64,000 nt of DNA from the sequence record MZ501075. One strand, written 5' to 3'. The translations under genes were made by a program, and so were the position numbers. The stretch comes from Escherichia phage IrisVonRoten. Every line of letters starts with the position of its first letter. Positions within the stretch are counted from its first letter, which is position 1. The notes beneath the pieces are model-generated. The model worked only from the letters and a program-made list of their open reading frames with translations, was not told the DNA's origin and ran no database searches. Below are positions 31,019 through 63,990 of this stretch, piece after piece.

Positions 31019-31035
31019 CCAAATAAGGAATCTCT

Positions 31036-31287: not shown

Positions 31288-31454
31288 CAACCTAAAAGTA
31301 AAGATTGATAAACAAAAGAAACGTGTAGAAGTAGAGATTGGTGAAGAACGTGTTGCCTTTACTTTTGAATTTCTACAGCAAATGGCAATGACAGTTATGA
31401 CTGATAAGTCCCCTGTTATTGAAAAAGAAATCCCGTTGAAATAACGGGATTATC

Positions 31455-31526
31455 GCTCCTAAAGCATTGCTGGCGATGCAGTTGCCTTGTAAGCATCTGA
31501 ACCGGGTTCGATTCCTGGTGGGAGCA
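31455..31526 (+). tRNA. tRNA-Thr (anticodon TGT)
   Basis: Acceptor gctccta/tgggagc, D-stem gcat/atgc, anticodon loop cttgtaa, T-arm ccggg-ttcgatt-cctgg. Confidence 0.6.
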
Positions 31527-31544
31527 CCAAATTTAAAAATTCAT

Positions 31545-31573
31545 TTGCTTTCTCTCTTATTTATCGCTATAAT
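31545..31573 (+). promoter_or_regulatory. T5-type early promoter
   Basis: ttgctttctctcttatttatcgctataat. Confidence 0.55.
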
Positions 31574-31603
31574 ATTTATATAAATTAATGAGAGGGAAAC
31601 CAA

Positions 31604-31897
31604 ATGAAACGTTATCTTTCTGTAGTATTCCAAACTGGTGGCCAAAGATACACCTATGAATTTCCATCTTCTTGGAAAATCAAAGAGGGTGATCAAGTAG
31701 TAGTGCTAACACCGCGTGAAGAGTATAAAGTAGTAACGGTTAAACAAGTATTTCCAAAAGATCATGAACCAGCTAAAGGCATCCGCTATAAGATGATTCA
31801 TGGTGTGGTTCGTCAAGTACCACGAACTGAGGTAGAAGTAGATAAGACTGGAGAAGCTAAATTTCATTATACTTCTTACCTAAACGAGAGGCGATAA
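31604..31897 (+). CDS. hypothetical protein (97 aa)
   Basis: ORF after RBS gagagggaaacc. Confidence 0.45.
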   Translation: MKRYLSVVFQTGGQRYTYEFPSSWKIKEGDQVVVLTPREEYKVVTVKQVFPKDHEPAKGIRYKMIHGVVRQVPRTEVEVDKTGEAKFHYTSYLNERR

Positions 31898-32103
31898 TGA
31901 GAATTTCTTTTACAGAAAAGATCATGAGTAATGGTGTTATGATCATTACCGCGTGGGATGGTAATCAGTGGTGCAGTATTTCAGGTATTAAGCCTGCAGA
32001 TCAAACACCTGAAAACATCCGTAAAGTAAAACGAAAGATGGCGGAATGTGCCCGACTTCCCGGTGCGCCTAGAAATGGTAAACGTTCTACAATTAAATGT
32101 TAA
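31897..32103 (+). CDS. hypothetical protein (68 aa)
   Basis: ORF track; ATGA overlap. Confidence 0.35.
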   Translation: MRISFTEKIMSNGVMIITAWDGNQWCSISGIKPADQTPENIRKVKRKMAECARLPGAPRNGKRSTIKC

Positions 32104-32104
32104 T

Positions 32105-32178
32105 GCTTCGGTAGCTTAGCGATCTAAAGCACTCGGCCGATAACCGAGAGATCGGGGGTTTAAATCCCTCCCGGAGTA
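32105..32178 (+). tRNA. tRNA-Ile (anticodon GAT)
   Basis: Acceptor gcttcgg/ccggagt, anticodon arm ctcgg-ccgataa-ccgag; T-loop tttaaat atypical. Confidence 0.55.
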
Positions 32179-32277
32179 CCAAATTTAGGAATTAAGACTA
32201 TGCGTCCAGGAAAGTTTAAAAAAGCTAATTGGTCTATAGAGTATAAAGAATACTTACTTAGTCTAATAAAACATAAT

Positions 32278-32350
32278 AGTTAGTTGGCAGAGTGGTTATG
32301 CACCTCCTTCATACGGAGCGACTACAGTGGTTCAAATCCACTACTAACTA
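32278..32350 (+). tRNA. tRNA (anticodon CAT; Met or Ile2)
   Basis: Acceptor agttagt/actaact, anticodon loop ttcatac, T-arm agtgg-ttcaaat-ccact. Confidence 0.55.
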
Positions 32351-32390
32351 CCATTAACAGAGCTAGAGATAGCTAAATATAGGAGCAATT

Positions 32391-38355: not shown

Positions 38356-39107
38356 TGTCAGTATTAGTAGGTCTGCATGGTGAAGCTGGTTCGGGAAAAG
38401 ATACCGTTGCAAAATTAATTATCGATTGGTGTAATTACACGTATCCAACGTGTTTACCCCGTCGTTATAGTTTTGCTAAGCCCGTTTATGAACTTGCATC
38501 CGTAATCCTCGGTGTAACTCCAGAGTTTCTAGGAGAGCGCAGGGGAAAAGAGATTAACCAATGGTTTACGGTCACACAATCTCAATTGGAGCGAGCTAGA
38601 GACGTATGGTTTAAATACGGTATCGATAAGTTTGAAGACTTCTCGTACGTTTGGCCAATTTTTGAGGAAAAATATCTTAATCCTCAACAACTTATCTCAG
38701 AGAATAAAGAAGACGGACTTTATAGTTTATTTATTTCTACGAGAAAAATGTTACAGCTCGTAGGAACAGAGCTAGGAAGGCAGCTGGTACATGAACGCAT
38801 TTGGCTCATAATTCTGGAGCAATCCATCGCTAAAGACGACCCAGATGTCGCCGTAATAACAGATGTGAGATTCCCCAATGAAGGAGAGTTACTCAGAGAA
38901 ACGAACCATTTAGATATGGATTCTTTACTAGTAAATGTAGTGCCCGCTGAGCAGAAGTTCACTATTAAATCAGATCATCCATCTGAAAGTGGTATTCCTG
39001 CAAAATATATCACTCACGAATTAGTTAATAAATTCGATGGTATCAATAACCTTAAACTAGAAGTGTATAACTTCTGTGACTTAGAGCTAGAACCACTAGT
39101 TGGATAA
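38355..39107 (+). CDS. deoxynucleoside monophosphate kinase-like P-loop protein
   Basis: Walker A GLHGEAGSGKDT at N-terminus; 250 aa. Confidence 0.6.
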   Translation: MSVLVGLHGEAGSGKDTVAKLIIDWCNYTYPTCLPRRYSFAKPVYELASVILGVTPEFLGERRGKEINQWFTVTQSQLERARDVWFKYGIDKFEDFSYVWPIFEEKYLNPQQLISENKEDGLYSLFISTRKMLQLVGTELGRQLVHERIWLIILEQSIAKDDPDVAVITDVRFPNEGELLRETNHLDMDSLLVNVVPAEQKFTIKSDHPSESGIPAKYITHELVNKFDGINNLKLEVYNFCDLELEPLVG

Positions 39108-49524: not shown

Positions 49525-49709
49525 TGGAAACTCTTTTTCTTTTAATGCTCGTAGGTTCCCTACTAGTTATACTAGCACTTCTACTAATCTGCAATATTCT
49601 TAATAATAAGAATTTAGAGTTAAAGTGTGAGAACCAAATCCTTAACCGTGAGGTTAAACAATATAATCTAGCAGCTCATAAGCTGTTAGACAAACTGGAG
49701 AATAAATAA
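49524..49709 (+). CDS. small membrane protein (61 aa)
   Basis: ORF track. Confidence 0.4.
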   Translation: METLFLLMLVGSLLVILALLLICNILNNKNLELKCENQILNREVKQYNLAAHKLLDKLENK

Positions 49710-50326
49710 TGACTTTATATACACAACAACCTATTCAAGTAGTACCAGACCATGAACTGAACACATGGGATTATAGCTTTAAAGATTTAACTGCTACTGT
49801 ACAATTCAAATCTATGAAGCTAACATTTGCACACACTGACCTTAGAGCATGTAAAGATCTTGAAGGTAAGCTCGAAGATGCTCGTAAGATTTTTGGCACG
49901 GCTCGCATCCCGGCTGATAACCTGATTAATGCACTGATCGATGCAGGATACAAACTCGTGAAGGCTGAGGTGAACCGCCCTAGTACTCCAGTGACTATTA
50001 GAGATCCGTGGCAGTCAGGGACAATCTCAATGCTGAATAACTCCGATAAAAGATTAATGTCGGATTTGCACAATGTTCCTTGTGGGGGTGTGGTAAGTAG
50101 TACGAAGTCATATAAGTTTGGTGAAGATTACGGCCCTTCTGTACAGTTGCAACATACTCAAGAAGCTTTTGAATCTGATATGCGAAGCGTAGCACCTGCG
50201 GATACTGAAGGTTTTAGAAGCCCCATCTATGTTACTCACTTTAATAATCTTAGACCTGGAGGTATAAATGATGCAATTATGGAAGCACTAGGGGCTGCTC
50301 TTAGCGAAGATAAGAGAGGTAGTTAA
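49709..50326 (+). CDS. hypothetical protein (205 aa)
   Basis: ORF track. Confidence 0.45.
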   Translation: MTLYTQQPIQVVPDHELNTWDYSFKDLTATVQFKSMKLTFAHTDLRACKDLEGKLEDARKIFGTARIPADNLINALIDAGYKLVKAEVNRPSTPVTIRDPWQSGTISMLNNSDKRLMSDLHNVPCGGVVSSTKSYKFGEDYGPSVQLQHTQEAFESDMRSVAPADTEGFRSPIYVTHFNNLRPGGINDAIMEALGAALSEDKRGS

Positions 50327-50814: not shown

Positions 50815-51536
50815 GTATTAAAAAGAATTTAGCAGAGATTATTAAATTAGCTAGAGCTTGTAATGGAAAATGTGTTTCTCAGCTTAATGAACTAGAAGCA
50901 CATGCAGTAGCGTTTTGTGCAGAGTTTTATCCTGCATACCTTAATGCTAGTGGACAGCCCAAATATAATAAAGATGCAGAAGAAGTTACTTTAGCACCTT
51001 CTTATATTAGTTTACGTCGTTTAATTCAAACCGTTGATCCTACTATTAAAGGGTTCTCAGCAGATTCATTCCATGTCTTTGCGGATAAAGAACTCCCACA
51101 TTTTAAAGAAGGAAATGCAAAGGCTTGTCTAGAATGTTATCCTAATATTTTGATGGTTCCACCTAAGCAATGTAAGTATGATCATCTCCCTAGGCTCACT
51201 AAGAAAGTAGCACCACCTTATTCTTCTCTATCTGAATTAAAGCTAGGAATTGTATCTACACTTGCGCAGATTCATCTAAGTATAGTTGACGACTCAACAA
51301 CATCTAACCCTATTCTAGATGCTGCACATTATGAAATCTTACGTGATCCTGAGCAGGCTAGAAAAGTTGCGAAGTCTGTTAAGTTTGACATCTCAACAAT
51401 TCTTGATACGATGCAAGATACGAGACCTAGGGGAAGTGTAGATTATTCTGCGCTTAATTCTGAGTCATCTTACCTAGCAACATTCCTTTTCATGGCATCG
51501 AAGGGAATCATACTCAAAGTCAATCACGATGTATAA
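50811..51536 (+). CDS. hypothetical protein (241 aa)
   Basis: ORF track. Confidence 0.45.
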   Translation: MSIKKNLAEIIKLARACNGKCVSQLNELEAHAVAFCAEFYPAYLNASGQPKYNKDAEEVTLAPSYISLRRLIQTVDPTIKGFSADSFHVFADKELPHFKEGNAKACLECYPNILMVPPKQCKYDHLPRLTKKVAPPYSSLSELKLGIVSTLAQIHLSIVDDSTTSNPILDAAHYEILRDPEQARKVAKSVKFDISTILDTMQDTRPRGSVDYSALNSESSYLATFLFMASKGIILKVNHDV

Positions 51537-51553
51537 ACGTTAACGAAAAATTC

Positions 51554-51582
51554 TTGACATTATTTGAGCTGCATGTTATAAT
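51554..51582 (+). promoter_or_regulatory. perfect-consensus sigma70 promoter (TTGACA-17-TATAAT) with no downstream ORF
   Basis: ttgacattatttgagctgcatgttataat. Confidence 0.55.
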
Positions 51583-51936
51583 AATCTCATAGATTAAAAA
51601 CATCAACTTGTTTTTACCTCTAGGCCGTAGATTTACATCATTCCTCGTAGGAAAACACTTGATGACGGTTCTGTTCGCAGGTTCTCGTCAATTGTTCTTC
51701 CACACCGAGACTTAGGAGGATGTATCAAATCGCACGCGCCTAGAGGGGCTAACTCTCATGAAATGGGGGTATATTAACTTTTAAATAACTGATAAATATT
51801 TAAAGGCAATATCTGTGTTCAAGATGATACACTTGTTGCCGCTCATCTGCTAGGATGGCATAACACTTTCTTCTAGACTCCTAAGTTTCTAGGAAATTGA
51901 TAAGCACAAATTCTAGAGATCACATAAAAATATTCA

Positions 51937-52674
51937 TCGGATTTGCACATATTCTAGGGCAGTTTTCATGTTCCTAGAAACTCCAGCAATAGGCGGTTTA
52001 ATACAGGGCGGTTATAGGGAGGGCGGTTATTTCTAGGAGACATTTTTCGAAAACACATTTCTGGATTTTACTGTCGGATTTGCACATTGATATTCTAGAA
52101 ATTTATGGTCGGATTTGCACAAATGCCTAAGTTTTTAGGAACTCATACTCTCTTGAGAATAGCAGCATTATTTCGGGCCGAAGGCCCATGATTGCCTGAG
52201 TTTTTAGAGCCACAAGAATTTTCACTTGTCAAGCTATTTTGCCCCATTTTGCTAATAAAATTTTACTTTTTCTGCACCTATCTCAAATTTCCCCAAATTA
52301 TCTCAACTCTTCCCCAAAATCCCCGCAAATCAGGTGCTCCGCACCAATCCTGCGCCCCCACCATTCTAGCCCCCAAATTTCTCTCGCTCTCTCATCTTCT
52401 CCTCAAACCTATACAATCACACACCCTCCAATCGAAGTCACAAAAATCTTGTCGGATTCGCACATCTTAATCCTAGAAAAACCGTGTCGGATTTGCACAT
52501 ATCCCATAGGATTCGAACGCAGTTCGTGATTGCTGGAGTTTTTGGGAAAATTCGTCGTCGGATTCGCACATTACAAAAGTTTTTGGGGTCGGATTTGCAC
52601 ACTACCAAAAATTGTCGGATTCGCACATACATGCCCGCACGTAACACCCGTGGAGCAATGTCGGATTTGCACAA
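51937..52674. repeat. array of nine dispersed copies of a 14-bp motif GTCGGATT(T/C)GCACA
   Basis: Copies near 51937, 52073, 52108, 52451, 52486, 52557, 52588, 52614, 52660. Confidence 0.75.
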
Positions 52675-52731
52675 AAGCGCAGGGCAATTGCCCTGCTCGC
52701 CTGAATGCGAATGATAATGAGAATCAATCTT

Positions 52732-52890
52732 ATTTAAAAAGCGGAATGAGAATGATAATGATTCGCATTTAAAAAGCGGAATGAGAATCAATCTCATTTA
52801 AAAAGCGGAATGATTCTCATTTAAGAAGTGGAAGGATTCTCATTTAAAAAGCGGAATGAGAATCAATCTCATTTAAGAACGGAAGTGAGA
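52732..52890. repeat. iteron-like tandem repeats (about 6 copies of CATTTAARAAGCGGAATGA-like unit)
   Basis: Direct repeats with variable spacers; degenerate copies at 52820 and 52870. Confidence 0.7.
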
Positions 52891-52892
52891 AA

Positions 52893-53010
52893 CACTGTTA
52901 TTTAAGTTATCCACAGACTTATCAACAGCACGATTTGCCTTGACAGAATTCTAGCCATTTTGAGGCGTTATCAACAGACTTATCAACAGCTTATCCTACT
53001 GTATAAATAT
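52893..53010. repeat. left arm of approx. 120-bp imperfect inverted repeat (contains DnaA-box-like TTATCCACA)
   Basis: Reverse complement of 55215-55345 aligns (atttaagttatccaca ... ttatcctactgtataaatatacag). Confidence 0.65.
52907..52915 (+). promoter_or_regulatory. DnaA box consensus TTATCCACA
   Basis: Exact 9-mer. Confidence 0.5.
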
Positions 53011-53162
53011 ACAGTATTCCTATGCAGTGAATAATTCTAATATAGGCTTAAAACGTCCTGAATCGCATTCTAACGCGTTTTATTTTGGAGGAGGTATTTT
53101 AATAAGGGGAAATTTGTTTGCAGGCAGAAAAGGCGGGGCCAGATAGTTGCGCCCCGTTATTA

Positions 53163-53357
53163 TTAGTCCGGTATTTGATGGGAGAACTCTACGCTTTCAC
53201 CGTAGGAATCTACTAGATTAGTGTAGTAACCATACTCATCATATATAAGTTTGTCATACTCTTGATTCTCACAAATTGCGCGGTTTTCTTTTGTATCTTC
53301 TACATAGAATGTATCCACGGTAACACTAGTTTTACTAATAACAATTTTATCACTCAT
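53163..53357 (-). CDS. hypothetical protein (64 aa)
   Basis: ORF track; motif aacggggcgttact immediately upstream of ATG. Confidence 0.4.
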   Translation of the reverse strand: MSDKIVISKTSVTVDTFYVEDTKENRAICENQEYDKLIYDEYGYYTNLVDSYGESVEFSHQIPD

Positions 53358-53598
53358 AGTAACGCCCCGTTATTAATAGATGTATTGTTGAAAATAGCGG
53401 CGGATATTGTCGCCACCGTTGGGATCATTAGCAGGCTTAATATTACCCACGAAAATATATAGTCTCATAACGCCATCGCTCCTAGAATGAGAATGATTAT
53501 CAATATCATTGTAAAGCCATTACCAAATCGTAAACGCTGGGAATGTTTCCCAGCGGTATTATTAGATTTGTGACTTTGCGTTTTACGCCACCAGCTAT

Positions 53599-53811
53599 TC
53601 ACGGTTTTAAATTCTCTATAGTTAATTTTGCGCGAATAGTGATTCCATATAATTCGCCTCCCTTGTTTCTTACATCAGGTAGCCAGTCCCACAATTCAGG
53701 GTATCCGCTTAAAATTCCTAGCGATGCAAGATTAGCAATAAAACCGGCTATAGTAACCGCTTCCAGTGAAATAGTTACACGATTATTAATAACTAAAGTA
53801 AACTTTTTCAT
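53599..53811 (-). CDS. hypothetical protein (70 aa)
   Basis: ORF track. Confidence 0.4.
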   Translation of the reverse strand: MKKFTLVINNRVTISLEAVTIAGFIANLASLGILSGYPELWDWLPDVRNKGGELYGITIRAKLTIENLKP

Positions 53812-54167
53812 TGCGCCACCTTTCGAAACGCTGTTTCGATACTTTCAGCGGTTGATTGAATATACGCGCCTTTCATAATTAGACGCTCCGTACATACTTT
53901 GCGGAAAATGTCAATAAATTCATTTTCATTTTCCGCTATTAACGCTTCCCCCATAACCTGAACGTCACAAGACCCAAAAGTTAAAAATTGAAACGCTAGT
54001 TCACGGGCGACAACGGCATTAATTTTATAGTGCGCCTTGCCCTCATAAATATTAATAACGCCCTTATATGCTGGTGAAAGCTGATTTAAATAGTTTGCTA
54101 ATAATGCCGGACGGCAATTAGTAATAAAGCGATTGCCTTCATAAATAACCATTTTATAACCTCCCAA
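53808..54167 (-). CDS. hypothetical protein (119 aa)
   Basis: ORF track. Confidence 0.45.
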   Translation of the reverse strand: MGGYKMVIYEGNRFITNCRPALLANYLNQLSPAYKGVINIYEGKAHYKINAVVARELAFQFLTFGSCDVQVMGEALIAENENEFIDIFRKVCTERLIMKGAYIQSTAESIETAFRKVAQ

Positions 54168-54275
54168 TCAGGTATCCAGATAAAAGCATAAAAATCCCCA
54201 GTAAAAGGGGATCATTCTTAAATAAGGTGGCGGTAAAACCGCCAACCATTGCAAGGAGAATAACAATAACGCTTT

Positions 54276-54488
54276 TCATAGTACCCCACGAAAGGCCGCG
54301 TAAAAGGTGGCAAAATATTTAACCGTTTCAGCTATCACGTTGCCGCGCTTATCAAATTTCTTTTCTGTAACACGAAAGGCGTTTTTATTCCGTGCTACAT
54401 ATTCGATTTTACAATCCTCCCGCTCGAACGTGTTAACGTCCACCAGCTTAAAACCTTTTGAACGGGCAAGAGAAACGTTGCGGATCAT
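54276..54488 (-). CDS. hypothetical protein (70 aa)
   Basis: ORF track. Confidence 0.4.
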   Translation of the reverse strand: MIRNVSLARSKGFKLVDVNTFEREDCKIEYVARNKNAFRVTEKKFDKRGNVIAETVKYFATFYAAFRGVL

Positions 54489-54683
54489 TTTTATTCTCCT
54501 TTACTCATGCAGCCCAGCAAGTAAGAAAAAACAGCGATACCCGCGCCAATAATAACCGCGTGAACGTCGAAAGCTATTGCAAACAACGATAAAATAGCGC
54601 CCAAGATACCCGCTAGAATAGCTCGAAAAATAACCATTTTTATTCCCCTAGTTAGTGGGGCGAAAGTAACGCCCCGTTATTAA

Positions 54684-54947
54684 TTACATTAAAACGATTT
54701 TGGCGGCTTGTTTTTTGGTGCAATGTTCCGCCTTCAGGGTATCCAGCAAAAAGCCAGCCGTTTGCTGATCGATTTGATCATTATCATAAAGCGCCTGAAT
54801 GGTAGTGTATGTTTTAGCAATGCCGTATTCTTGCACCATTTCTTGAATGATCCAGCGATTTGATACCCAACCTTTTCCAGTGAAAAGAGCGTCAGAAGAA
54901 GAATAAGCAACCATTTTAAGCCTCCAATTTTTTGGGAAAATTTTCAA
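54684..54947 (-). CDS. hypothetical protein (87 aa)
   Basis: ORF track. Confidence 0.4.
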   Translation of the reverse strand: MKIFPKNWRLKMVAYSSSDALFTGKGWVSNRWIIQEMVQEYGIAKTYTTIQALYDNDQIDQQTAGFLLDTLKAEHCTKKQAAKIVLM

Positions 54948-55214
54948 CCGTCCTCGAACGGTGTAAAGGCATTATAACAAAAAAGGCCGCTATAAAAGGC
55001 GACCTTTACAAAACTTTACATTAGGTTAGTTATTACTCTCTTTCTCTTTCTAGTTACTTGGGGCATATTGGTCAACCGCGCAGCGGTACAGTAAAGAGCA
55101 AAACACGGTGAAGCCACCAGGGCGACGGGTGAAGGCTTCACTTTAATATTACCCCACCGCATTTAGCTCGTTAGAAAGCGTTTTAGGCCGCCTAAAATTG
55201 ATTGCAGTTGTTAA

Positions 55215-55345
55215 CACTACCCATTTACCCTGTATATTTATACAGTAGGATAACATGTGGATAAGTCTGTGGATAAGTCCTTATATCGCCGCCTATCGTG
55301 TCAAATCATTTTGTGCTGTTAATAACATTGTGGATAACTTAAATG
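55215..55345. repeat. right arm of approx. 120-bp imperfect inverted repeat with three DnaA boxes
   Basis: tgtggataag x2 and tgtggataa (reverse-complement TTATCCACA). Confidence 0.65.
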
Positions 55346-55371
55346 ATAGTGGTTCTCACTTAGGACGATAG

Positions 55372-55424
55372 TTTCTTATAGTTATTATTTCTATCGGTTA
55401 CGATTTCTTATAATTATTATTTCT
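55372..55424. repeat. 21-bp direct repeat pair (TTTCTTATARTTATTATTTCT)
   Basis: Two near-identical copies 11 bp apart. Confidence 0.6.
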
Positions 55425-55620
55425 CATTAATTTATAAGTATATTATATATCATGAAATAGTTAGTTGGCTAATGAGATTTTCCGTGATTAATAGTCTGCT
55501 AATAGTTCCGGCTGTTACAATCCACCAGCATGATTATCATCCTAGCAACTATTAGTCTGCTATCTTTCCGATGCATACTAACAAATAAAAGTCAATTAAT
55601 TTATTTCATAAAATAAGTAG

Positions 55621-55653
55621 TTATCCACTGGAAAATAAAAGTCAAGTGGATAA
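55621..55653. promoter_or_regulatory. pair of convergent DnaA-box-like sites (TTATCCACT / AGTGGATAA)
   Basis: 8/9 matches to TTATCCACA in inverted orientation. Confidence 0.4.
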
Positions 55654-56109
55654 CTAGGAAAATTTCATTTTTGCTTTTGGGGATAAGTTATCAACAAGGC
55701 TAGAATGCGCCTAAAACGCCCTAGAACGCGATGAAAGTTTTAGCCATGCCATTGCATTGCCTACCCTCGTTTATCGCTACCACGAGCTTTTTAGTTTTTG
55801 TCAAGTAGGGCAAGGCAAATATAAATGAAAAAATTACTTGCCAACCTGCTCGGTTTTATGGTATTCGCGCGCCCGTTTCCTTTAATTTTAGTGCGCCGCG
55901 CCCAGGTCGCCGCACGGTGTCCGGTGGCATTTTGTCTTTACGTTTCTTTACAAAAATAAGGTTGCGCCATTTTTACTATTTGCTATTATTTATCTCGTAG
56001 GGCGGCAATGACGAACTACACGGCGGGAAGTTTACCGCCGCGCTCTTTAAAAATTGGGTACATCTTAAAGTCTATCGGCGGTAAACTTATATTATAAGGA
56101 ATCGCAGAT

Positions 56110-56313
56110 ATGAAACAAACTTTATTGATCACTGGTAAACCAGCTAAAAAATTAGATGGTACTACTAAAAAATTGTTGACAATAGCCCAGCAATCCGTAA
56201 AATACCGATTTGCTCAGTACAAGAAAGGCCGCCAGCAGGGTTTAGAAATGATCTGGCGTAATATTATGATCGACCTGAAAGAAAATCATAAAAAACTGCA
56301 AAAAACAGTTTGA
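56110..56313 (+). CDS. hypothetical basic protein (67 aa)
   Basis: ORF after RBS taaggaatcgcagatATG. Confidence 0.4.
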   Translation: MKQTLLITGKPAKKLDGTTKKLLTIAQQSVKYRFAQYKKGRQQGLEMIWRNIMIDLKENHKKLQKTV

Positions 56314-56542
56314 CACTCTAGCCGATAGGCTTTAAGATGTACCCAGTTCGATGAGAGCGATAACTTGATACAATTTGACGGCCGGTACTTGCCATAATGT
56401 GCCCCGCCCCCCTAACTGGGATATAGCGGCCCGCGTGGAGTTCCTTAAATTGATTATAATGGCGAGTGGATTTTTTCTTATTATCTGCTAGAAAGTAGCA
56501 GATAATGCGGAACAATCCGTTTAATAAACTGGAGTTTATACC

Positions 56543-56890: not shown

Positions 56891-57298
56891 ATGACTAACG
56901 TTAAAACCGCAAAATTTGCTTGGAATGAAGAAAACACTCAAAAAGCTGTTTCTATGTACCAGCAGTTAATTAATGAAAACGGTTTAGATTTCGCAAATAG
57001 CGACGGTTTAAAAGAGATTGCAAAAGCAGTGGGCGCGTCTTCTCCCGTGTCTGTTCGCTCAAAATTGACCAGCGCAAAAGCGTATCAGAAAAGCGATAAG
57101 CCTCGCAAAGTTGGCGGCGGTAGCTCAATCCGCAAAGCTCACTATGTACGCGTTATCGCTAAACATGCTATTGATTCCGGCATTATTAAAGACGCCGACG
57201 ATCTGGCAAGTCTGGAAAGTGCAAAACTTGAAACGCTGGACGCCGTAGCGCAACTGTTAGGCGTTGCCGATGAAGTAAAACAGGCCGCAGGTGAATAA
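56891..57298 (+). CDS. A2: A2-like pre-early protein (candidate)
   Basis: 135 aa protein just upstream of A1-like gene; identification by size/position only. Confidence 0.4.
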   Translation: MTNVKTAKFAWNEENTQKAVSMYQQLINENGLDFANSDGLKEIAKAVGASSPVSVRSKLTSAKAYQKSDKPRKVGGGSSIRKAHYVRVIAKHAIDSGIIKDADDLASLESAKLETLDAVAQLLGVADEVKQAAGE

Positions 57299-57642: not shown

Positions 57643-59313
57643 ATGATTATTTCCGCAGAAAAACAAACCGTTATCCTGAAAATGGCCGCTGACTTTAACT
57701 TCTACGGTAAACGCCTGCGCGCCACTAAATTGGAAGTTTGTGACGATATTTCGAAAGCGGTATACGATACTACTAAACACTCCACCGCCATTTGTGATTG
57801 GTTGGAAGCAAATAAACCAGCGAAACCAAAAGCGGCAAAAGTAGCAAAAGCCATTAAAAATGATGAGCGCCCAGAAGCGGCTGGGATTGTTTCTAGTACG
57901 GTGGAGCAATGGGAAGTAAAACAAGGTAAACGCTTTATTATTACATCGATTCAGAATAATACTTTCCCGCATAAAAACTTTTTAGCCTCACTGGAGCAAT
58001 TTGCTAAATATATCGGTGCTGATTTGCTTGTTTCTAAGTATATTTATAATAAAAACGGTTTTCAAAATGGGGAAGGTGCGGATGGAATCAAATATGATTC
58101 CGCGTTCGATAAATATATTTGCAGCAAAAACGTGTTTTTAAATAACCGCCGCTTTGCTTTCATGGCTGAAATTAATGTTTTGCCAACCGCAGATTATCCG
58201 CTTTCTGGATTCGCCGAGACTGCAACGGCTTTAAATATTGAGGGGCTGGCAATTGGTCACGCTAAAATTACCGCTGAAAGCGTGCCAGCTTTAAAAGGTG
58301 AAGTAGTGCGCCGTATGTATTCAACCGGAACGGCAACGTTAAAAAACTACATTCAGCAGAAAGCAGGACAAAAGGCCGAGGCGCTGCATAACTTCGGTGC
58401 GCTAATTGTCGAGTTCGACGAGGACGGGGAATTTTTTGTTCGCCAGCTTGAAACAATGGACGAAAGCGGGGTGTTTTATGATCTGAACGTTTGCGCTACT
58501 CCTGCCGGATGCTATGAGACATCGGGGCATGTTTTAGGCTTGCAGTATGGCGATATTCACGCCGAAAAATTAGATGAGGAGTGCGCCGCCGCATCTTGGG
58601 GGCATGGTGATACTTATGGGCTAGTAGATATTCTTAAACCAAAATATCAGTTTGTGCATGACGTTCACGATTTTACATCCCGCAATCATCATAACCGCGC
58701 ATCCGGTGTATTCCTAGCTAAACAATACGCCGCCGGACGTGATAAAGTTCTGGATGATCTTATCGATACGGGGCGCGTGCTGGAATCAATGGAACGTGAT
58801 TTTAGTCAAACAATCATTGTTGAATCTAATCACGATTTGGCGCTATCCCGTTGGCTTGATGATCGTAATGCTAACATCAAAGACGATCCAGCAAACGCCG
58901 AGTTATATCACCGCCTGAATGCTGCAATTTACGCGGCAATCGGTGAACACGACGAAACGTTTAACGTGCTAGATTATGCGTTGCGCAAGGTTGCAGGTTG
59001 TGAATTTAACGCCATTTTCCTGACCACTGATCAATCTTTCAAGATTGCAGGCATTGAATGCGGCGTACACGGTCACAATGGCATTAACGGCAGTCGTGGC
59101 AATCCTAAACAATTTAAAAAATTGGGCAAGTTAAACACGGGGCATACCCATACCGCCAGCATTTATGGCGGCGTATATACCGCTGGCGTTGCTGGTAGTC
59201 TGGATATGGGTTACAACGTTGGCGCGTCAAGCTGGACGCAAACGCATTTAATTACCTATGCAAATGGTCAACGCACTTTGATTGACTTTAAAAACGGTAA
59301 ATTCTTTGCATAA
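57643..59313 (+). CDS. A1: A1-like pre-early protein with metallophosphoesterase motifs
   Basis: 556 aa; GDIHAEKLD, GHGDTYG, HDVHDF, GHTHT phosphoesterase-like motifs. Confidence 0.55.
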   Translation: MIISAEKQTVILKMAADFNFYGKRLRATKLEVCDDISKAVYDTTKHSTAICDWLEANKPAKPKAAKVAKAIKNDERPEAAGIVSSTVEQWEVKQGKRFIITSIQNNTFPHKNFLASLEQFAKYIGADLLVSKYIYNKNGFQNGEGADGIKYDSAFDKYICSKNVFLNNRRFAFMAEINVLPTADYPLSGFAETATALNIEGLAIGHAKITAESVPALKGEVVRRMYSTGTATLKNYIQQKAGQKAEALHNFGALIVEFDEDGEFFVRQLETMDESGVFYDLNVCATPAGCYETSGHVLGLQYGDIHAEKLDEECAAASWGHGDTYGLVDILKPKYQFVHDVHDFTSRNHHNRASGVFLAKQYAAGRDKVLDDLIDTGRVLESMERDFSQTIIVESNHDLALSRWLDDRNANIKDDPANAELYHRLNAAIYAAIGEHDETFNVLDYALRKVAGCEFNAIFLTTDQSFKIAGIECGVHGHNGINGSRGNPKQFKKLGKLNTGHTHTASIYGGVYTAGVAGSLDMGYNVGASSWTQTHLITYANGQRTLIDFKNGKFFA

Positions 59314-60144: not shown

Positions 60145-60879
60145 ATGAATCAAGTTAAGACGAATATTACCCGTAATTTCCCGCATATTTCCCGCGTCAT
60201 GATTTGGGATCTGGACGGCACTATCATTAACTCTTTCCATCGTGTAGCGCCTTGCTTTGATAGCGAGGGCAATTTAGATTTAAATAAGTATAAAAATGAA
60301 GCCTGCAAACATGATTTAATAATGCAAGATACACTATTGCCCCTTGTTACATATATGCGCCAGTGCATGAATGACGCAAATACTTTAAACATTATTTGCA
60401 CCGCTCGACTAATGAGCAAGTCGGACTATTATTATTTGCGTAAACAAGGGTTGCGCGGTCGTGGTGATAGTAATATCCGTGTATTTTCCCGCGATACACT
60501 ACACAAATATTTTGAAGCTGATAAAGTTAGCGAGATATACCACAGCAAAGACGCAGTTTATAAAAGTTACTATTTTGGGCTATTCAAACAATTATATCCG
60601 AACGCTGATTTTACAATGATTGATGATCATAAAGGCGTGCTATCAGCGGCAGCGTCATACGGATTTAAAACGCTGGACGCACAAGCCGTTAACGATATTC
60701 TATCAATCGGCGTGACATTGATAGGTGAAACCTTTATTGATGAATCTCTTGAGGATGATAATGATTATCAGTTCCTAGCCGACCGCCTGCAATTATGTTG
60801 GGAAGGTATGACCGAAGAAGAACGCGCAGAATATAGTTGCAGCCCGCAACAATATATTGAGAAATTAAAAGTTGCGTAA
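60145..60879 (+). CDS. dmp: deoxyribonucleoside-5'-monophosphatase-like HAD protein (Dmp-like)
   Basis: 244 aa; HAD motif I MIWDLDGTIINS; location next to A1-like gene. Confidence 0.55.
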   Translation: MNQVKTNITRNFPHISRVMIWDLDGTIINSFHRVAPCFDSEGNLDLNKYKNEACKHDLIMQDTLLPLVTYMRQCMNDANTLNIICTARLMSKSDYYYLRKQGLRGRGDSNIRVFSRDTLHKYFEADKVSEIYHSKDAVYKSYYFGLFKQLYPNADFTMIDDHKGVLSAAASYGFKTLDAQAVNDILSIGVTLIGETFIDESLEDDNDYQFLADRLQLCWEGMTEEERAEYSCSPQQYIEKLKVA

Positions 60880-61039
60880 TAATTAAAGTTGAAATTGTTT
60901 CACCTTGCAATTAAAATGGTTGCAGGGTGAAACAGTTAGCATGGTAATAGTAACGGGCGGTAATGAGACTCATTCTCATCTGAGAGGCCACTGGACACAC
61001 CCACGCGTACGTAATCCAAAGAAATTGGCAAAAGTCAAA

Positions 61040-61285
61040 TTAGCGCATAGAAGGGTCATCAAACCTGTGCTCTGGTCTGAACTCACGGAATCTCTTCCGC
61101 GACGCCCGAGATCCATCCGACCACTCCCGCTCAAACTCCGCACGTTTCTCGTCAAACTTCCGCTCCCTTTCCGCAATCTCCCGCGATACTTCCGCAGTAT
61201 ACTTACGATGCTTGTTAATAGCCGCAGTCATTCCGAAAATTCCCGCAAGTACCCCGATAATAAAAGCAATTATAATACTAAACAT
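61040..61285 (-). CDS. small membrane protein (81 aa)
   Basis: N-terminal TM helix, charged C-terminus. Confidence 0.4.
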   Translation of the reverse strand: MFSIIIAFIIGVLAGIFGMTAAINKHRKYTAEVSREIAERERKFDEKRAEFEREWSDGSRASRKRFREFRPEHRFDDPSMR

Positions 61286-61472
61286 CTAATTCCCTCTCAA
61301 TTTGCAGAATACGGGTACTATCACAACGTTGGAGTTCTACTAATTTTTCTATAGCAAATTGTTGCTGTTTTACCCGAGCCTCTAGAGTTTTTAGGCGAAC
61401 GTATACGGTGCAAGAAGCAATGAAAATTGTCCAGACTAGTATTACTGTTACTATAGCTACTACTTCCATCAT
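61278..61472 (-). CDS. small membrane protein (64 aa)
   Basis: N-terminal TM helix; overlapping start/stop with neighbours. Confidence 0.4.
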   Translation of the reverse strand: MMEVVAIVTVILVWTIFIASCTVYVRLKTLEARVKQQQFAIEKLVELQRCDSTRILQIERELDV

Positions 61473-61880
61473 TTACGTTTCTCCGTTAATAAAGTTTCAA
61501 TTCTAGCTAAGTGATTATCTAAAATACATTGCCCGATAATCACAACCCCTAGTAGTGCAATAATTATCCATTCCATTAAATCCACCCCGCCATAGCGGCT
61601 AACCAAAAACCTACGAAAATAAAGAATAGGATAGTTCCGAACCCAAAACTATTTATCCAACTCTCATACACTTCTCCACGCCTGCTCTTTCTTTTGTTTG
61701 ACATATCTTTCATGCTCCTATAAATGTGGTATTTAAAATATTTTATAATTTGGGCATAACCAACCGTGCCTGTGAACTCCTAGAAGGACTCCTATTTTTC
61801 TTACCTAGTGGTTTCTGCCAATATACCATCCAAGAAATAAAAAATTTAGTTTACTTGGATGTCTTTTTGTTTTATACTAA

Positions 61881-62147
61881 TTACAGGTAATTAGATTGCT
61901 CTAGTTTAAATTTACAATCACCATATTTAAGGTCAAACTGACTGAGATCCCACCACCCAAATTTAGTACGGAGCTGTACTACTGGGAAGCGATCTCCCTT
62001 AATACGAACTTTTTGAACCTTGAGGCCGTAATGTTCTTCTCCCGCACCACCAAAAGATTTTACAAATCCAGTACAAAATGGTTTGGGAGCAGGTGCACAA
62101 CCAGATAACATAACTGTGGCAACTAGTGCAATTACAAACTTTTTCAT
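61881..62147 (-). CDS. llp: lipoprotein, Llp-like (candidate superinfection-exclusion lipoprotein)
   Basis: Signal peptide + lipobox LSGC; divergent from adjacent receptor-binding-protein candidate. Confidence 0.5.
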   Translation of the reverse strand: MKKFVIALVATVMLSGCAPAPKPFCTGFVKSFGGAGEEHYGLKVQKVRIKGDRFPVVQLRTKFGWWDLSQFDLKYGDCKFKLEQSNYL

Positions 62148-62232
62148 ATTTATCTCTCCATTTCTAATTTATGAATTTATTATAGCAAAATAGAGGGATG
62201 AAAGCAAATACATTTTTATAATAGGAGATTAT

Positions 62233-63990
62233 ATGGGTTTTTTCGCTGGAAAGTATAGCGATGGTAAGACCGTACTATCCTTAAATACTGAATCTGGTGG
62301 TGACATTAATCGTCACTATAGTCCAAATGCCAATAGTATTTTTCATAGTGATATGCCATTTGTCCTAGTTGATGGTACTTACGAGGCTGGGCTAGGTAAT
62401 GCCGGAAATGGGTTTTTTGTATGTCAGATGCCTTCTGACATAATAAATATTAAATCCAATGACCCAGGTAGAGTTATACTAACTGCTATTGAAATTAATG
62501 GTACTCACAGAGCTTTTCTTAATGGTACTCAGAGTAAAGTTGGTCAAACTATAGTTGCCACTCAGGCAGATCCCTTTAGATCTTTTGCTAGTGTTTCTCA
62601 AACCAGTGGGTTTGCATTTGGTAATAGTCTAGCATCTGGCACTTATAATTATAATCCCTCGATAGGGCATGAAGAATCTATCTCTAGGAGTGGTACAGGG
62701 GGTACTACGTTACATAGTACCTATCATGGGATAGTTAGGCCCGGTGCGGGAGCTCCTGTAGGTGTTACTGTTGCAGAAGCCTTTGCACAATTAGGTTTTC
62801 CTACTAATAGTAGCACAGTACCTGTAGATGGCAATAACCCGTACTATTGGGATCCTGGATGGATGTCGCCTCTAGGAGCAGCGCATAGAGGGCATGATTG
62901 GTTTTATGTCTGCAATTCTAATATACGTGGATATGGTGGGGTTAGACAAGGGCTCCCAGGTAATGTAAATACTATGTACCACGACGGTGGGAACAGATTT
63001 GTTTGTAGGGGATCTACTACTAATTTAGCTAACCAGTCGGGTGACTCTACAATACTACAGGATTGGTATAATATAACTCCTACTAAGGTTATTTGGTATG
63101 TTCTTAATTTAAGGTACTCTAATGGTGGAATGAGTATTTCAGGCAACCCCTTTACTGGTTCCGATATTCTTATATCTCCTTCTAATTTCATAATTAAAGG
63201 GGTAAGTCTCCCCAATACCGGGTATAAATTTATAAATCAGAATGCTTTTGGTAACCTAGGTTACCGTCCTGATATGGAGTATATAGGGAATAACGCAGCG
63301 TATACTGGGGTTTTTGGGGATACTACTGCAAGGTGTGAACTTGTAGGGTCTAGTAATGGAGGATTATGGTCTCCTGTAGACTATGGTGGAGCTAAATCAC
63401 AGATTAGCATTTATAAGTTCGGAGTAGGTAAACAGTGGTATGTAAACTCAAATAATAATACTATTGGTAATGAACATGGGGTTGTTTGGGGGCCCTCAGC
63501 AGTTCCACTGCGACTTTTTGGTGGAAATGTAGGTAGTTCTTATATGGGAGATGATATTACACCCCACTATCCAGGAACTGGGGATAGATACGTTGGTTTA
63601 TCAACTATTGGGCTGGGTATACCAGGCGGAAATGCTACAGTAATTCTTACTACTGAAGTTATATCAGGTAATCTTAATTGTGCAGGTGTTCCCGCTAATA
63701 CATGGAATAATGGTGTGTTTCAGGTGCAAGGAAGAAGAGCATATAGCTATAGCGGCGGGGATGCAATATTCCACCAGATTTTAACGCTACCTGTGGGCTA
63801 TCTAGTACCTTTTCATACTACATCTGCTTTTAGATACACGCCTAACAATGCTCTTAGTAGAAACAGTTTTATATATACCGTTAAAAATCTAGGAAATGGA
63901 AATGTAGAGTTAGGAGTAGTTATGCACGTGAGTTTGGGTAGCGCAGTTTTCCTACCTAGATTAAGAGTAACAGTTCAACGCCTTACCTAA
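62233..63990 (+). CDS. candidate receptor-binding tail protein (pb5/Oad-like)
   Basis: 585 aa Gly/Asn/Ser-rich protein adjacent to Llp-like gene; assignment by context. Confidence 0.45.
   Translation: MGFFAGKYSDGKTVLSLNTESGGDINRHYSPNANSIFHSDMPFVLVDGTYEAGLGNAGNGFFVCQMPSDIINIKSNDPGRVILTAIEINGTHRAFLNGTQSKVGQTIVATQADPFRSFASVSQTSGFAFGNSLASGTYNYNPSIGHEESISRSGTGGTTLHSTYHGIVRPGAGAPVGVTVAEAFAQLGFPTNSSTVPVDGNNPYYWDPGWMSPLGAAHRGHDWFYVCNSNIRGYGGVRQGLPGNVNTMYHDGGNRFVCRGSTTNLANQSGDSTILQDWYNITPTKVIWYVLNLRYSNGGMSISGNPFTGSDILISPSNFIIKGVSLPNTGYKFINQNAFGNLGYRPDMEYIGNNAAYTGVFGDTTARCELVGSSNGGLWSPVDYGGAKSQISIYKFGVGKQWYVNSNNNTIGNEHGVVWGPSAVPLRLFGGNVGSSYMGDDITPHYPGTGDRYVGLSTIGLGIPGGNATVILTTEVISGNLNCAGVPANTWNNGVFQVQGRRAYSYSGGDAIFHQILTLPVGYLVPFHTTSAFRYTPNNALSRNSFIYTVKNLGNGNVELGVVMHVSLGSAVFLPRLRVTVQRLT

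What the first reader, a model, noticed from the sequence alone, without database searches (positions are those of the whole stretch)
51937..52890. Dense ORF-free repeat landscape: nine GTCGGATTYGCACA motifs plus six iteron-like repeats
Nine copies of a 14-bp motif at irregular spacing are followed by six tandem CATTTAARAAGCGGAATGA units and a GC-rich palindrome (gcgcagggcaattgccctgctcgc, about 52676-52699). This looks like a protein-binding platform. Its position matches where T5-type phages carry the injection stop signal, but the motif itself is read directly from the sequence, not recalled.
Basis: partly seen in the sequence, partly recalled or inferred. Interest (0 to 1): 0.65.

Follow-up and report, generated by a model that had tools for sequence, protein, structure and literature searches.

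The report
Phage T5 injection-stop repeat region
This is the already-described non-coding repeat region at the inner end of the long terminal repeat of a T5-like phage, where DNA injection is known to pause; the repeats are real and strongly conserved, but which proteins read them is still unknown.

Summary
There are nine same-strand copies of [A/G]TCGGATTYGCACA, against 0.42 expected by chance. They are followed by a perfect 18-bp GC palindrome and six to seven tandem units of 23/29/35 bp, in a stretch with no credible gene.

The window is a T5-like phage. The region is homologous to T5's annotated "injection stop signal" (Repeat Region 3 of Wang and Davison). The 14-mer is their DRD repeat (nine copies) and the tandem units are their DRC repeats and palindromes. 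So the element is already known.

What this analysis adds:
- The terminal-repeat boundary (52206|52207) lies inside the array, with three copies outside and six inside. Nine genomes from three clades show the same layout.
- The last copy abuts GCGCAGGG, the consensus of T5's major nick sites.
- The motif core TCGGATTTGCAC persists in Vibrio phages whose A1 protein is only 34% identical, and paired copies occur only in T5-like genomes.
- Just outside the given coordinates lie paired DnaA boxes and a near-consensus LexA box, also conserved across the family.

My best reading is a composite cis-acting platform. The 14-mer array is most likely read by a conserved phage protein at the genome's right-end cut site (about 0.35-0.4). 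A role in stopping or restarting injection is the main rival (about 0.3).

The parts
51554..51582 (+). Consensus sigma-70 promoter (TTGACA-17-TATAAT, with TG before the -10) that reads toward the repeat array and the terminal repeat
   Evidence: 12 of 12 match. An equivalent near-consensus promoter 380-870 nt upstream of the first motif copy is present in T5, SPC35, SIA3lw, a Klebsiella phage, Vibrio D36 and Vibrio Cilsick.
51936..52121 (+). 14-mer cluster A: three copies (51936-51949, 52073-52086, 52108-52121), outside the terminal repeat
   Evidence: The same three copies occur in T5, SPC35 and SIA3lw.
52175..52187 (.). Small GC hairpin GGGCC-GAA-GGCCC, 20 nt outside the repeat boundary
   Evidence: Read. 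Conserved in T5, SPC35 and SIA3lw.
52206..52207 (.). Inner boundary of the long terminal repeat, which is the right-end cut site of the virion DNA: ...CCTGAGTTTTTA|GAGCCACA...
   Evidence: The annotated repeat ends of T5 and SPC35 map to this junction, and that of SIA3lw to within 1 nt. Nine genomes holding both repeat copies place the boundary in the same gap between motif clusters.
52225..52445 (+). C-rich, G-poor spacer between the two motif clusters (about 38% C and 7% G in the most skewed 200 nt)
   Evidence: GC skew -0.53. Minimum skew -0.71. A comparable tract is found in every family member examined.
52451..52673 (+). 14-mer cluster B: six copies (52451, 52486, 52557, 52588, 52614, 52660), inside the terminal repeat
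52677..52696 (+). Nick-site consensus GCGCAGGG (52677-52684; predicted nick between 52676 and 52677 on the + strand). It overlaps the perfect palindrome GCAGGGCAATTGCCCTGC (52679-52696), which looks like a terminator on the - strand.
   Evidence: The 60 nt around it are identical to the T5 major nick at 9748/9749 from 19 nt upstream of the nick onward. GCGCAGGG marks three of T5's annotated major nicks (7.9%, 18.5%, 32.6%). Terminator-like on the - strand.
52703..52890 (+). Six to seven tandem palindrome-containing units of 23, 29 or 35 bp (GAATGA...TCATTTAAAAAGCG). These match the DRC repeats and palE/G/H of the T5 literature. The estimated first-step shear point falls at about 52725.
52907..52988 (+). 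Two pairs of DnaA boxes, each pair 3 bp apart: TTATCCACA and TTATCAACA at 52907 and 52919; TTATCAACA twice at 52968 and 52980. These match Davison's IRC'-spacer-IRD'.
52997..53016 (.). Near-consensus LexA (SOS) box TACTGTATAAATATACAGTA, which matches palD of the T5 literature
   Evidence: One mismatch to the 20-mer consensus, with 0.00 expected by chance. CTGT-N8-ACAG next to DnaA boxes is conserved in all family members where the region was in hand.
55228..55337 (-). Inverted second copy of the module: LexA-like box 55228-55247 plus DnaA boxes at 55256, 55268, 55317 and 55329 (- strand). This matches Repeat Region 2 (IRC-spacer-IRD).
50059..50072 (+). Isolated tenth exact 14-mer copy inside the 205-aa ORF 49709..50326
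   Evidence: Also present in T5 (12154), SPC35, SIA3lw and most IMG/VR T5-like contigs.

Best explanation
The stretch is the conserved non-coding region at the inner end of the long terminal repeat of a T5-like phage. It corresponds to T5's 'injection stop signal' region, called Repeat Region 3. It is a composite cis-acting platform, not a single signal.

In window orientation the order is:
1. a strong promoter;
2. three 14-mers;
3. the terminal-repeat boundary, which is the genome's right-end cut site;
4. a C-rich spacer;
5. six 14-mers;
6. the major nick site within a GC palindrome;
7. clade-specific tandem palindromic units;
8. two pairs of DnaA boxes;
9. a consensus LexA box.

Committed mechanism (inferred, not shown):

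(a) The co-oriented 14-mer array is bound by a conserved phage protein and marks the right-end cut site in replicated concatemers. It would work like the repeated motifs that flank the cut in P1 pac, or like pacL/pacR around pacC in SPP1. The most likely reader is the small terminase subunit. Because the left end is injected first, it was probably packaged last, so packaging should start at this boundary. I put this at about 0.35-0.4.

(b) The injection pause itself is more likely set by the parts just inside the nick: the tandem units and the DnaA and LexA boxes. These are the last sequences to reach the cytoplasm and can be bound by host proteins, as in Davison's DnaA-anchor model.

Shown here: the homology, the anatomy, the conservation, the position of the boundary and the motif identities. 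Not shown: any protein binding.
For: Identity.
- 456 phage records match, nearly all T5-like.
- The region aligns to SPC35's left terminal repeat and to T5's annotated iss, repeat end and nick.
- A2, A1 and dmp follow inside the repeat.

The array as a real, directional binding array.
- Nine copies against 0.42 expected.
- 305 sites in 42 IMG/VR loci, none on the opposite strand.
- Paired copies occur only on T5-like contigs among 2.9 million viral contigs, apart from one unrelated duplication.
- The core TCGGATTTGCAC persists in Klebsiella, Pantoea and Vibrio phages, down to 34% A1 identity.

Link to the terminus.
- The annotated repeat ends of T5, SPC35 and SIA3lw map to the same junction, 52206|52207, to within 1 nt.
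- In nine genomes holding both repeat copies, from three clades, the boundary always falls in the gap between cluster A and cluster B.
- T5-type and Klebsiella-type genomes share the cut-site sequence TTTTTA|GAGCCACA although their flanks differ.

A conserved candidate reader exists. T5.156 matches the small terminase family PHROG 3802 (E = 6.5e-91) and is 45-46% identical between T5 and Vibrio phages.

Host-factor part. The region is the densest cluster of DnaA boxes with at most 1 mismatch in the 64 kb: 10 in 1.1 kb against 2.7 background, all on the + strand. The LexA box has 1 mismatch to consensus and is conserved across the family.
Against: - No binding data exist for any part.
- The terminase genes lie about 13 kb from this boundary in the concatemer. 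The window's tail of 62233-63990 is the receptor-binding protein gene, and in T5 TerS is at 107934-108416. That is unlike most pac and cos sites.
- In the Vibrio phage Cilsick record the repeat boundary lies just after the whole array and the nick-like site, not inside the array. The reliability of that boundary is unknown.
- Much of the boundary evidence within the T5 clade is common descent, not independent observation.
- The array's position immediately distal to the pause point fits a role in stopping or restarting transfer equally well.
- Two isolated same-strand copies inside T5 genes (12154, 78951) are not explained by a cut-site role.
- Right-end-first packaging is inferred from the 'last in, first out' rule, not demonstrated for T5.
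Confidence: 0.55

Rival explanations
1. The 14-mer array is part of the injection stop or restart machinery. When transfer pauses near the nick, the array is the next DNA to enter. A conserved DNA-binding protein made from the first-step DNA (A2, with A1) or a host factor would bind the successive co-oriented sites. It would either hold the DNA (stop) or ratchet it inward (second-step restart).
For: - The array begins 4 nt distal to the nick at T5's 7.9% position, and about 50 bp distal to Davison's estimated shear point.
- A2 is annotated as a DNA-binding protein required with A1 for transfer, and A1 and A2 are the essential pre-early genes.
- A2 matches the PHROG 'DNA binding protein' family and is 40-66% identical across the family, with a conserved basic core.
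- Papers up to 2026 still describe the stop signal as this repeat-rich region with an unresolved mechanism.
Against: - Three copies lie outside the terminal repeat, and the boundary falls consistently inside the array, which this model does not explain.
- No binding data exist.
- At the pause the array is still on the phage side of the envelope, so cytoplasmic proteins could only reach it after some further entry.
Confidence: 0.3
2. The 14-mers are weak DnaA boxes. ATTTGCACA differs from TTWTNCACA at one position. On this reading they extend a DnaA oligomer outward from the four canonical boxes, as low-affinity sites do in oriC.
For: - Six of the nine copies are 1-mismatch DnaA boxes, and all are co-oriented with the canonical boxes.
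- Some relatives have a perfect TTTTGCACA at a homologous position (SPC35, Pantoea, Vibrio D36).
- My estimate is that a random 14-mer contains such a match with probability about 0.01.
Against: - The invariant part of the motif is TCGGA..GCAC, not the DnaA-box part.
- In Vibrio phage Cilsick the motif is GTCGGATTTGCACC (CACA becomes CACC), while the true DnaA boxes in the same locus stay TTATCCACA.
- Klebsiella variants such as GTCGGAAATGCACAT break the critical T2 position of the DnaA box.
- In the 305 IMG/VR sites, 20% carry C at the T4 position of the DnaA box, and three of the window's nine copies do.
Confidence: 0.08
3. The region acts at the RNA or transcription level. The conserved strong promoter produces a non-coding transcript that carries the same-sense motif copies and is stopped by Rho in the C-rich, G-poor tract at the repeat boundary. 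The motif could be an RNA-protein binding element, or the unit could simply insulate the terminal repeat from early transcription.
For: - A consensus promoter is conserved upstream in the family, and a C-rich/G-poor 200-nt tract is conserved downstream.
- No + strand terminator-like hairpin lies between the promoter and 52835.
- All motif copies are on the transcribed sense strand.
Against: - No Rfam family matches.
- Six of the nine copies lie beyond the putative Rho site.
- Strict strand bias is explained equally well by a directional DNA-binding array.
- No transcript data were available.
Confidence: 0.07
4. The region is an iteron-type replication origin: DnaA boxes plus tandem repeats bound by an initiator.
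For: DnaA boxes lie next to tandem repeats, and a nick site lies beside a repeat array.
Against: - No Rep-like gene is adjacent, and the four nearest proteins tested (three upstream ORFs and A2) have no Pfam match.
- T5's putative origin-binding protein is encoded about 50 kb away.
- Davison cites electron-microscopy mapping of T5 origins near the centre of the genome, and notes that replication functions are not expressed from first-step DNA.
- The tandem units differ in sequence between clades, while the flanking motifs do not.
Confidence: 0.04

Closest known systems
Bacteriophage T5 injection stop signal region / Repeat Region 3 of the left terminal repeat (Heusterspreute et al. 1987 and Wang et al. 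2005, both as cited by Davison; Davison 2020 preprint 10.1101/866236)
   Same: Homologous sequence with the same order of parts: nine DRD copies, the palindrome at the major nick, DRC and palindrome units, paired DnaA boxes and palD. Same position at the inner end of the repeat that carries dmp, A1 and A2.
   Different: Only sequence divergence. Identity to the best-matching T5-like records is about 82-91%, and two spacings differ from T5 itself (35/71 here against 25/81). It is the same element in another isolate.
Terminase recognition sites with motif clusters flanking the cut: P1 pac (hexamers on both sides of the cut) and SPP1 pacL-pacC-pacR (from my own knowledge of these systems)
   Same: A short asymmetric motif repeated in two clusters, 3 and 6 copies, on either side of a fixed cleavage site.
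   Different: - The clusters lie farther from the cut (about 85 and 244 bp).
- The site is about 13 kb from the terminase genes.
- The product is a 9-10 kb direct terminal repeat, not a headful series.
- Binding by the small terminase is untested.
DnaA-box clusters of oriC and datA
   Same: Four co-oriented boxes matching or nearly matching TTATNCACA, arranged in pairs.
   Different: There is no adjacent unwinding element or evidence of initiation. The 14-mers are probably not DnaA sites.
LexA operators (SOS boxes, TACTG(TA)5CAGTA)
   Same: A 20-bp palindrome with one mismatch to the consensus, conserved next to the DnaA boxes across the family.
   Different: It does not overlap a recognisable promoter, apart from one weak 9-of-12 match. 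It occurs as two inverted copies 2.2 kb apart that flank a block of pre-early genes.

Membership tests
T5-type injection stop signal region (Repeat Region 3) | Lies at the inner end of a roughly 9-10 kb direct terminal repeat that carries dmp, A1 and A2 | tested here: met
   Boundary at 52206|52207. A2 is 56891..57298, A1 is 57643..59313 and dmp is 60145..60879, all inside the repeat.
T5-type injection stop signal region (Repeat Region 3) | Sequence homology to the T5 region annotated as iss (AY543070 9140..10149) | tested here: met
   Megablast to T5-like records. Motif-by-motif correspondence with T5. Sequence identical to T5 from 19 nt upstream to 30 nt downstream of the nick.
T5-type injection stop signal region (Repeat Region 3) | Long non-coding stretch dense in stop codons | tested here: met
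   185 stops over six frames in 1626 bp. The overlapping open frames show no sign of protein-level constraint.
T5-type injection stop signal region (Repeat Region 3) | The named repeat set in order: palD, IRD'/IRC' with paired DnaA boxes 3 bp apart, DRC and palindromes, palindrome at the nick, nine DRD copies | tested here: met
   compared with Davison's list. Assigning the published names to my coordinates is an inference from order and copy number, because the published figure is not held.
T5-type injection stop signal region (Repeat Region 3) | Major single-strand interruption at about 7.9%, consensus Pu|GCGC | tested here: inconclusive
   The sequence consensus A|GCGCAGGG is present at 52676|52677 and matches T5's annotated nick. 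The physical nick cannot be seen in sequence data.
T5-type injection stop signal region (Repeat Region 3) | DNA transfer pauses here until A1 and A2 are made | not testable with these tools
   Needs infection experiments. Papers up to 2026 still call the mechanism unresolved.
pac/cos-type terminase recognition site | Repeated short motifs flanking a fixed cleavage site | tested here: met
   Three copies lie 85-270 nt outside the boundary and six lie 244-467 nt inside it. The same layout is seen in nine genomes of three clades.
pac/cos-type terminase recognition site | Specific binding by the small terminase subunit | not testable with these tools
   A conserved TerS candidate exists (T5.156, PHROG 3802, 45-46% identity to Vibrio phage TerS), but binding is untested.
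pac/cos-type terminase recognition site | Site lies in or next to the terminase genes | tested here: not met
   In T5, TerS is at 107934-108416 and the right repeat starts at 111532. That puts the inner boundary about 13 kb away in a concatemer.
Iteron-type replication origin | Iterons with a cognate initiator gene adjacent | tested here: not met
   No Pfam match for the three upstream ORFs or for A2. The origin-binding protein gene is distant. The tandem units are clade-specific.
DnaA box (TTWTNCACA), applied to the 14-mer | Conservation of the CACA end and of the T2 and T4 positions among homologous sites | tested here: not met
   Cilsick copies end in CACC, while the canonical boxes in the same locus remain TTATCCACA. 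Klebsiella variants break T2. The invariant bases are TCGGA and GCAC.
LexA (SOS) box, for 52997-53016 | CTGT-N8-ACAG palindrome close to TACTGTATATATATACAGTA | tested here: met
   One mismatch, with 0.00 expected by chance. Conserved in T5, SPC35, Pantoea, Proteus and Vibrio phages.
LexA (SOS) box, for 52997-53016 | Operator overlaps a promoter that it represses | tested here: inconclusive
   Only a weak 9-of-12 promoter-like match overlaps it (53008-53035, + strand). No transcript data were available.
Fur box, for the tandem units | At least about 15 of 19 matches to GATAATGATAATCATTATC, more often than chance | tested here: inconclusive
   15/19 at 52713 and 52748, and 15-16/19 at the same place in T5, SPC35, Klebsiella and Pantoea phages. 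But equal or better matches occur inside the dmp coding sequence (16-18/19), so the signal may only reflect the hexamer periodicity of the units.

The most novel reading that the evidence does not exclude
The 14-mer array is the binding platform of one family-wide conserved phage protein (small terminase or A2). That protein would tie together three T5 peculiarities that have been treated separately: the fixed right-end cut that creates the long terminal repeat, the major nick 4 nt from the last copy, and the two-step DNA transfer. In addition, the adjacent inverted modules of paired DnaA boxes plus a consensus LexA box would mean that host DnaA and LexA together are the missing host factors that hold the first-step DNA. 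I found no mention of the LexA box in the papers I could search.
Probability: 0.2. Interest if true: 0.7.

Novelty: already known. Interest (0 to 1): 0.3.

Why it matters
How T5 stops injecting its DNA after 8% has been an open question since the 1960s, and papers from 2026 still call it unresolved. The finding itself rediscovers the known repeat region.

The comparative results here sharpen what to test:
- The nine 14-mers straddle the genome's cut site.
- They are conserved as far as Vibrio phages.
- They are probably not DnaA sites.
- A conserved consensus LexA box sits beside the DnaA boxes.

Each of these can now be checked directly with the T5 genome-engineering methods used in the 2026 deletion study.

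Tried and rejected
1. 14-mer as a weak DnaA box. The idea was attractive at first. It was weakened by Cilsick and Klebsiella variants that keep TCGGA..GCAC but break the DnaA-box positions.

2. Tandem units as Fur boxes. There are 15-16/19 matches, conserved in enterobacterial relatives. Equal or better matches occur in the dmp coding sequence and none occur in the Vibrio phages, so this stays a weak note.

3. Search for the motif array in 185,579 bacterial genomes, hoping to find a host locus that would name the binding protein. Of 18 hits, 16 are unrelated tandem repeats and 2 are T5-like contaminant contigs in metagenome bins. One hit (L060) is a plasmid-like iteron set and looks coincidental.

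4. Rfam scan of 51000-56500. Nothing near any family's threshold.

5. Pfam on A2 and three upstream ORFs. No families.

6. Nick-enzyme recognition as the role of the 14-mer. The other T5 major nicks share A|GCGCAGGG but have no adjacent 14-mer, so the motif is not needed for nicking in general.

7. Readings considered by eye and dropped because spacing or bases do not fit: a sigma-54 promoter, a marbox, P1 parS boxes, CRP, and LexA (the motif has TGT-N9-ACA, one base off). A CsrA-type GGA hairpin in the RNA was also considered.

8. Davison's 2015 review could not be retrieved. The primary papers of 1987 and 2005 are not in the held library.

9. A1 homologues outside the family, such as Dinoroseobacter phage R5C, sit in structural modules and give no comparable context.
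Full report
**Observation.** The sequence is as described.
- The 14-mer [A/G]TCGGATTYGCACA occurs nine times between 51936 and 52673, always on the + strand. Spacings are 137, 35, 343, 35, 71, 31, 26 and 46 nt. Shuffles give 0.42 matches for the whole window.
- A perfect 18-bp palindrome, GCAGGGCAATTGCCCTGC, follows at 52679-52696.
- Then come six to seven tandem units of 23, 29 or 35 bp, each GAATGA...TCATTTAAAAAGCG.
- The stretch is not literally free of ORFs. But 51537-53162 has 185 stops over six frames. The open frames overlap one another on both strands, and they are mostly no better conserved as protein than the region is as DNA.

**What the window is.** The region matches 456 phage records, almost all T5-like phages of Salmonella and Escherichia.
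- Inside the adjoining repeat lie A2, A1 and dmp. A1 is 100% identical to that of Escherichia phage T5_ev219.
- After about 60957 the window runs on into the receptor-binding protein gene. The assembly therefore carries one collapsed copy of the terminal repeat, like a concatemer junction.

**Comparison with T5.** In record AY543070, 9140..10149 is annotated "injection stop signal (iss)". The left repeat ends at 10219, and a major single-strand interruption is placed at 9748/9749.
- T5 has the same nine 14-mers in the same order, the same palindrome and equivalent tandem units.
- The element is therefore already described. Papers from 2023 and 2026 still refer to it as the repeat-rich stop-signal region with an unknown mechanism.

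**The repeat boundary lies inside the array.**
- The annotated repeat ends of T5 and SPC35 map onto one junction...CCTGAGTTTTTA|GAGCCACA..., which is 52206|52207 here. That of SIA3lw maps within 1 nt of it.
- Three 14-mers are outside the repeat and six are inside. They are separated by a C-rich, G-poor spacer.
- In nine IMG/VR genomes that hold both repeat copies, one copy of the array has both clusters and the other has only cluster B. The boundary therefore falls in the gap every time.
- This holds for the T5 clade, for a Klebsiella-type genome that shares the cut sequence TTTTTA|GAGCCACA despite different flanks, and for a third type with a different cut sequence.

**The nick.**
- The window is identical to T5 from 19 nt before the annotated nick to 30 nt after it...GTCGGATTTGCACAAAA|GCGCAGGGCAATTGCCCTGC.
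- The T5 nicks at 18.5% and 32.6% share A|GCGCAGGG. In T5, this octamer occurs on the nicked strand only at those three sites.
- The window has it on the + strand at 20503, 38537 and 52677 and never on the - strand.
- The last 14-mer is followed within a few bases by GCGCAGG in Klebsiella, Proteus and Vibrio Cilsick phages as well.
- Davison's estimated shear point for the first-step fragment, corrected for the 80-bp offset between T5 records, falls about 50 bp inside the nick, near 52725. All nine 14-mers are therefore on the capsid side of the pause.

**Conservation and specificity of the 14-mer.**
- In 42 IMG/VR loci there are 305 sites and none on the opposite strand. The consensus is (T)GTCGGATTYGCACA.
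- A pattern of two cores 5-35 nt apart finds only contigs of about 96-123 kb of T5-like size, plus one unrelated duplication.
- In 185,579 bacterial genomes the same pattern finds only unrelated tandem repeats and two T5-like contaminant contigs.
- The motif is unchanged in Klebsiella and Pantoea phages (A1 74% and 65% identical). It is GTCGGATTTGCACC or AGAATTTGCACC in Vibrio phage Cilsick, and TTGAATTCGCACAT or TAGGTTTCGCACAT in Vibrio phage D36 (A1 34%). A single GTCGATTACGCACAT lies next to GCGCAGGG in a Proteus phage.
- The tandem units between the nick and the DnaA boxes are present in every member but differ in sequence from clade to clade.

**Is the 14-mer a DnaA box?** ATTTGCACA is one mismatch from TTWTNCACA. 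With the four canonical boxes, this makes the region the densest DnaA-box cluster in the window: 10 against 2.7 expected, all on the + strand. However, the invariant bases are TCGGA and GCAC. Cilsick changes CACA to CACC while its true boxes stay TTATCCACA, and Klebsiella variants break the T2 position. I therefore rate this reading low.

**Host-factor sites next to the finding.** Two pairs of DnaA boxes lie at 52907-52988, as Davison described.
- Immediately beyond them, TACTGTATAAATATACAGTA (52997-53016) is one mismatch from the LexA consensus, with 0.00 expected by chance.
- A second, inverted copy of the module lies at 55228-55337.
- CTGT-N8-ACAG next to DnaA boxes recurs in T5, SPC35, Pantoea, Proteus and Vibrio phages, and in about two-thirds of the IMG/VR loci.
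- Davison's text mentions neither LexA nor SOS, and my searches found no paper linking them to T5.

**Mechanism.** Two readings of the 14-mer array fit the anatomy.

*(a) Cut-site (pac-like) reading.*
- Two clusters of an asymmetric motif flank a fixed cleavage site, as in P1 pac or SPP1 pacL/pacC/pacR (from my own knowledge of those systems).
- The left end is injected first, so it was probably packaged last. Packaging should then begin at this boundary.
- A small terminase (T5.156, PHROG 3802) is 45-46% identical between T5 and Vibrio phages, which is enough to keep a DNA specificity.

*(b) Stop/restart reading.*
- The array is the first DNA to enter after the pause.
- A2 is a DNA-binding protein required for second-step transfer and is 40-66% identical across the family.

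I prefer (a), at about 0.35-0.4, because only it explains why the boundary sits inside the array in three clades. Reading (b) stands at about 0.3. Points against (a) are the 13-kb distance from the terminase genes and the Cilsick record, where the boundary lies just after the array.

For the pause itself, the better candidates are the parts just inside the nick: the tandem units and the DnaA and LexA boxes. This is in line with Davison's hypothesis. A recent deletion of hegG to 017 is viable. If that deletion is contiguous it removes Repeat Region 2, which suggests that the second DnaA/LexA module is not essential. That is my inference, not a statement in the paper.

**Other features.** A consensus promoter at 51554-51582 reads into the array, and similar promoters occupy the same place across the family. 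Together with the C-rich, G-poor tract, this suggests a Rho-terminated non-coding transcript that ends at the repeat boundary. This is a minor rival or an additional function. The palindrome at the nick resembles a terminator only on the - strand, where it would stop pre-early transcripts leaving the repeat. Rfam finds nothing.

**Verdict.** The element is already known. Interest is modest. It is raised slightly by the testable points added here: the boundary inside the array, family-wide motif conservation, the adjacency of the nick, and the conserved LexA box.

Noticed in passing
window 52997-53016 and 55228-55247: Near-consensus LexA (SOS) boxes: TACTGTATAAATATACAGTA (1 mismatch) and CCCTGTATATTTATACAGTA (3 mismatches). 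Each sits on the inner side of a paired DnaA-box module, and the two modules are inverted 2.2 kb apart. The arrangement is conserved in T5, SPC35, Pantoea, Proteus and Vibrio relatives. It is not mentioned in Davison's preprint or in any paper my searches found.
   Followed up: partly
window 20503-20510 and 38537-38544 (+ strand): GCGCAGGG occurs only three times in the window, all on the + strand. The contexts (GGAGA|GCGCAGGG) match T5's annotated major nicks at 32.6% and 18.5%. These are predicted nick sites of this phage.
   Followed up: partly
window 51554-51582, and 52225-52445: A perfect TTGACA-17-TATAAT promoter with an extended -10 follows the last early ORF and reads toward the terminal repeat. 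Downstream is a 200-nt tract with about 38% C and 7% G that looks like a Rho loading site, placed at the repeat boundary. Both features recur across the family.
   Followed up: partly
window 50059-50072; T5 AY543070 12154 and 78951: Isolated exact copies of the 14-mer core lie inside genes, always on the same strand as the array. About 0.03 would be expected by chance in T5. The T5 copy at 78951 is 377 nt from the 64.8% nick. Unexplained.
   Followed up: partly
window 52707-52772, 53483-53507, 56831, 60751-60775: All matches of at least 15/19 to the Fur-box consensus in the 64 kb fall inside the terminal repeat. Two are in the tandem units and one, at 53489, reaches 17/19. Those in dmp are coding sequence (Asp-Asp-Asn-Asp-Tyr), so the signal may be a composition effect.
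   Followed up: partly
window about 60957-62233: The left end of the terminal repeat abuts the region of the receptor-binding protein gene, so the assembly is a collapsed single-repeat (concatemer-like) form. T5's terminal 45 nt do not align with the window, so the left terminus differs from T5's.
   Followed up: partly
window 18826-32353: A cluster of 25 tRNA genes, all on the + strand, as expected for a T5-like early region.
   Followed up: no
window 51850-52480: CTAG is locally enriched: 10 in about 650 nt against 4.6 per kb in the whole window. Most copies are in the form TTCTAGR or CCTAGAAA, interleaved with the 14-mers.
   Followed up: no
L060 (CAZMBF010000179.1, alphaproteobacterial metagenome bin) 440-640: An unrelated small contig carries about eight 22-bp iterons, TATAGTCNCGATTGCACCATTT, two of which contain TCGGATTTGCAC. 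An ORF that looks to me like a plasmid replication initiator follows. The resemblance to the phage motif looks coincidental.
   Followed up: no
L012 (Vibrio phage Cilsick MN966730) 10081-10660: This phage has the same layout as T5: 14-mer copies, a C-rich spacer, more copies, GGCGCAGGAGGG, and then a 16-bp tandem array. The record's repeat boundary falls at the start of the tandem array, not inside the motif array. Either the boundary moved in this clade or it was mis-assigned near a nick or tandem repeat.
   Followed up: partly
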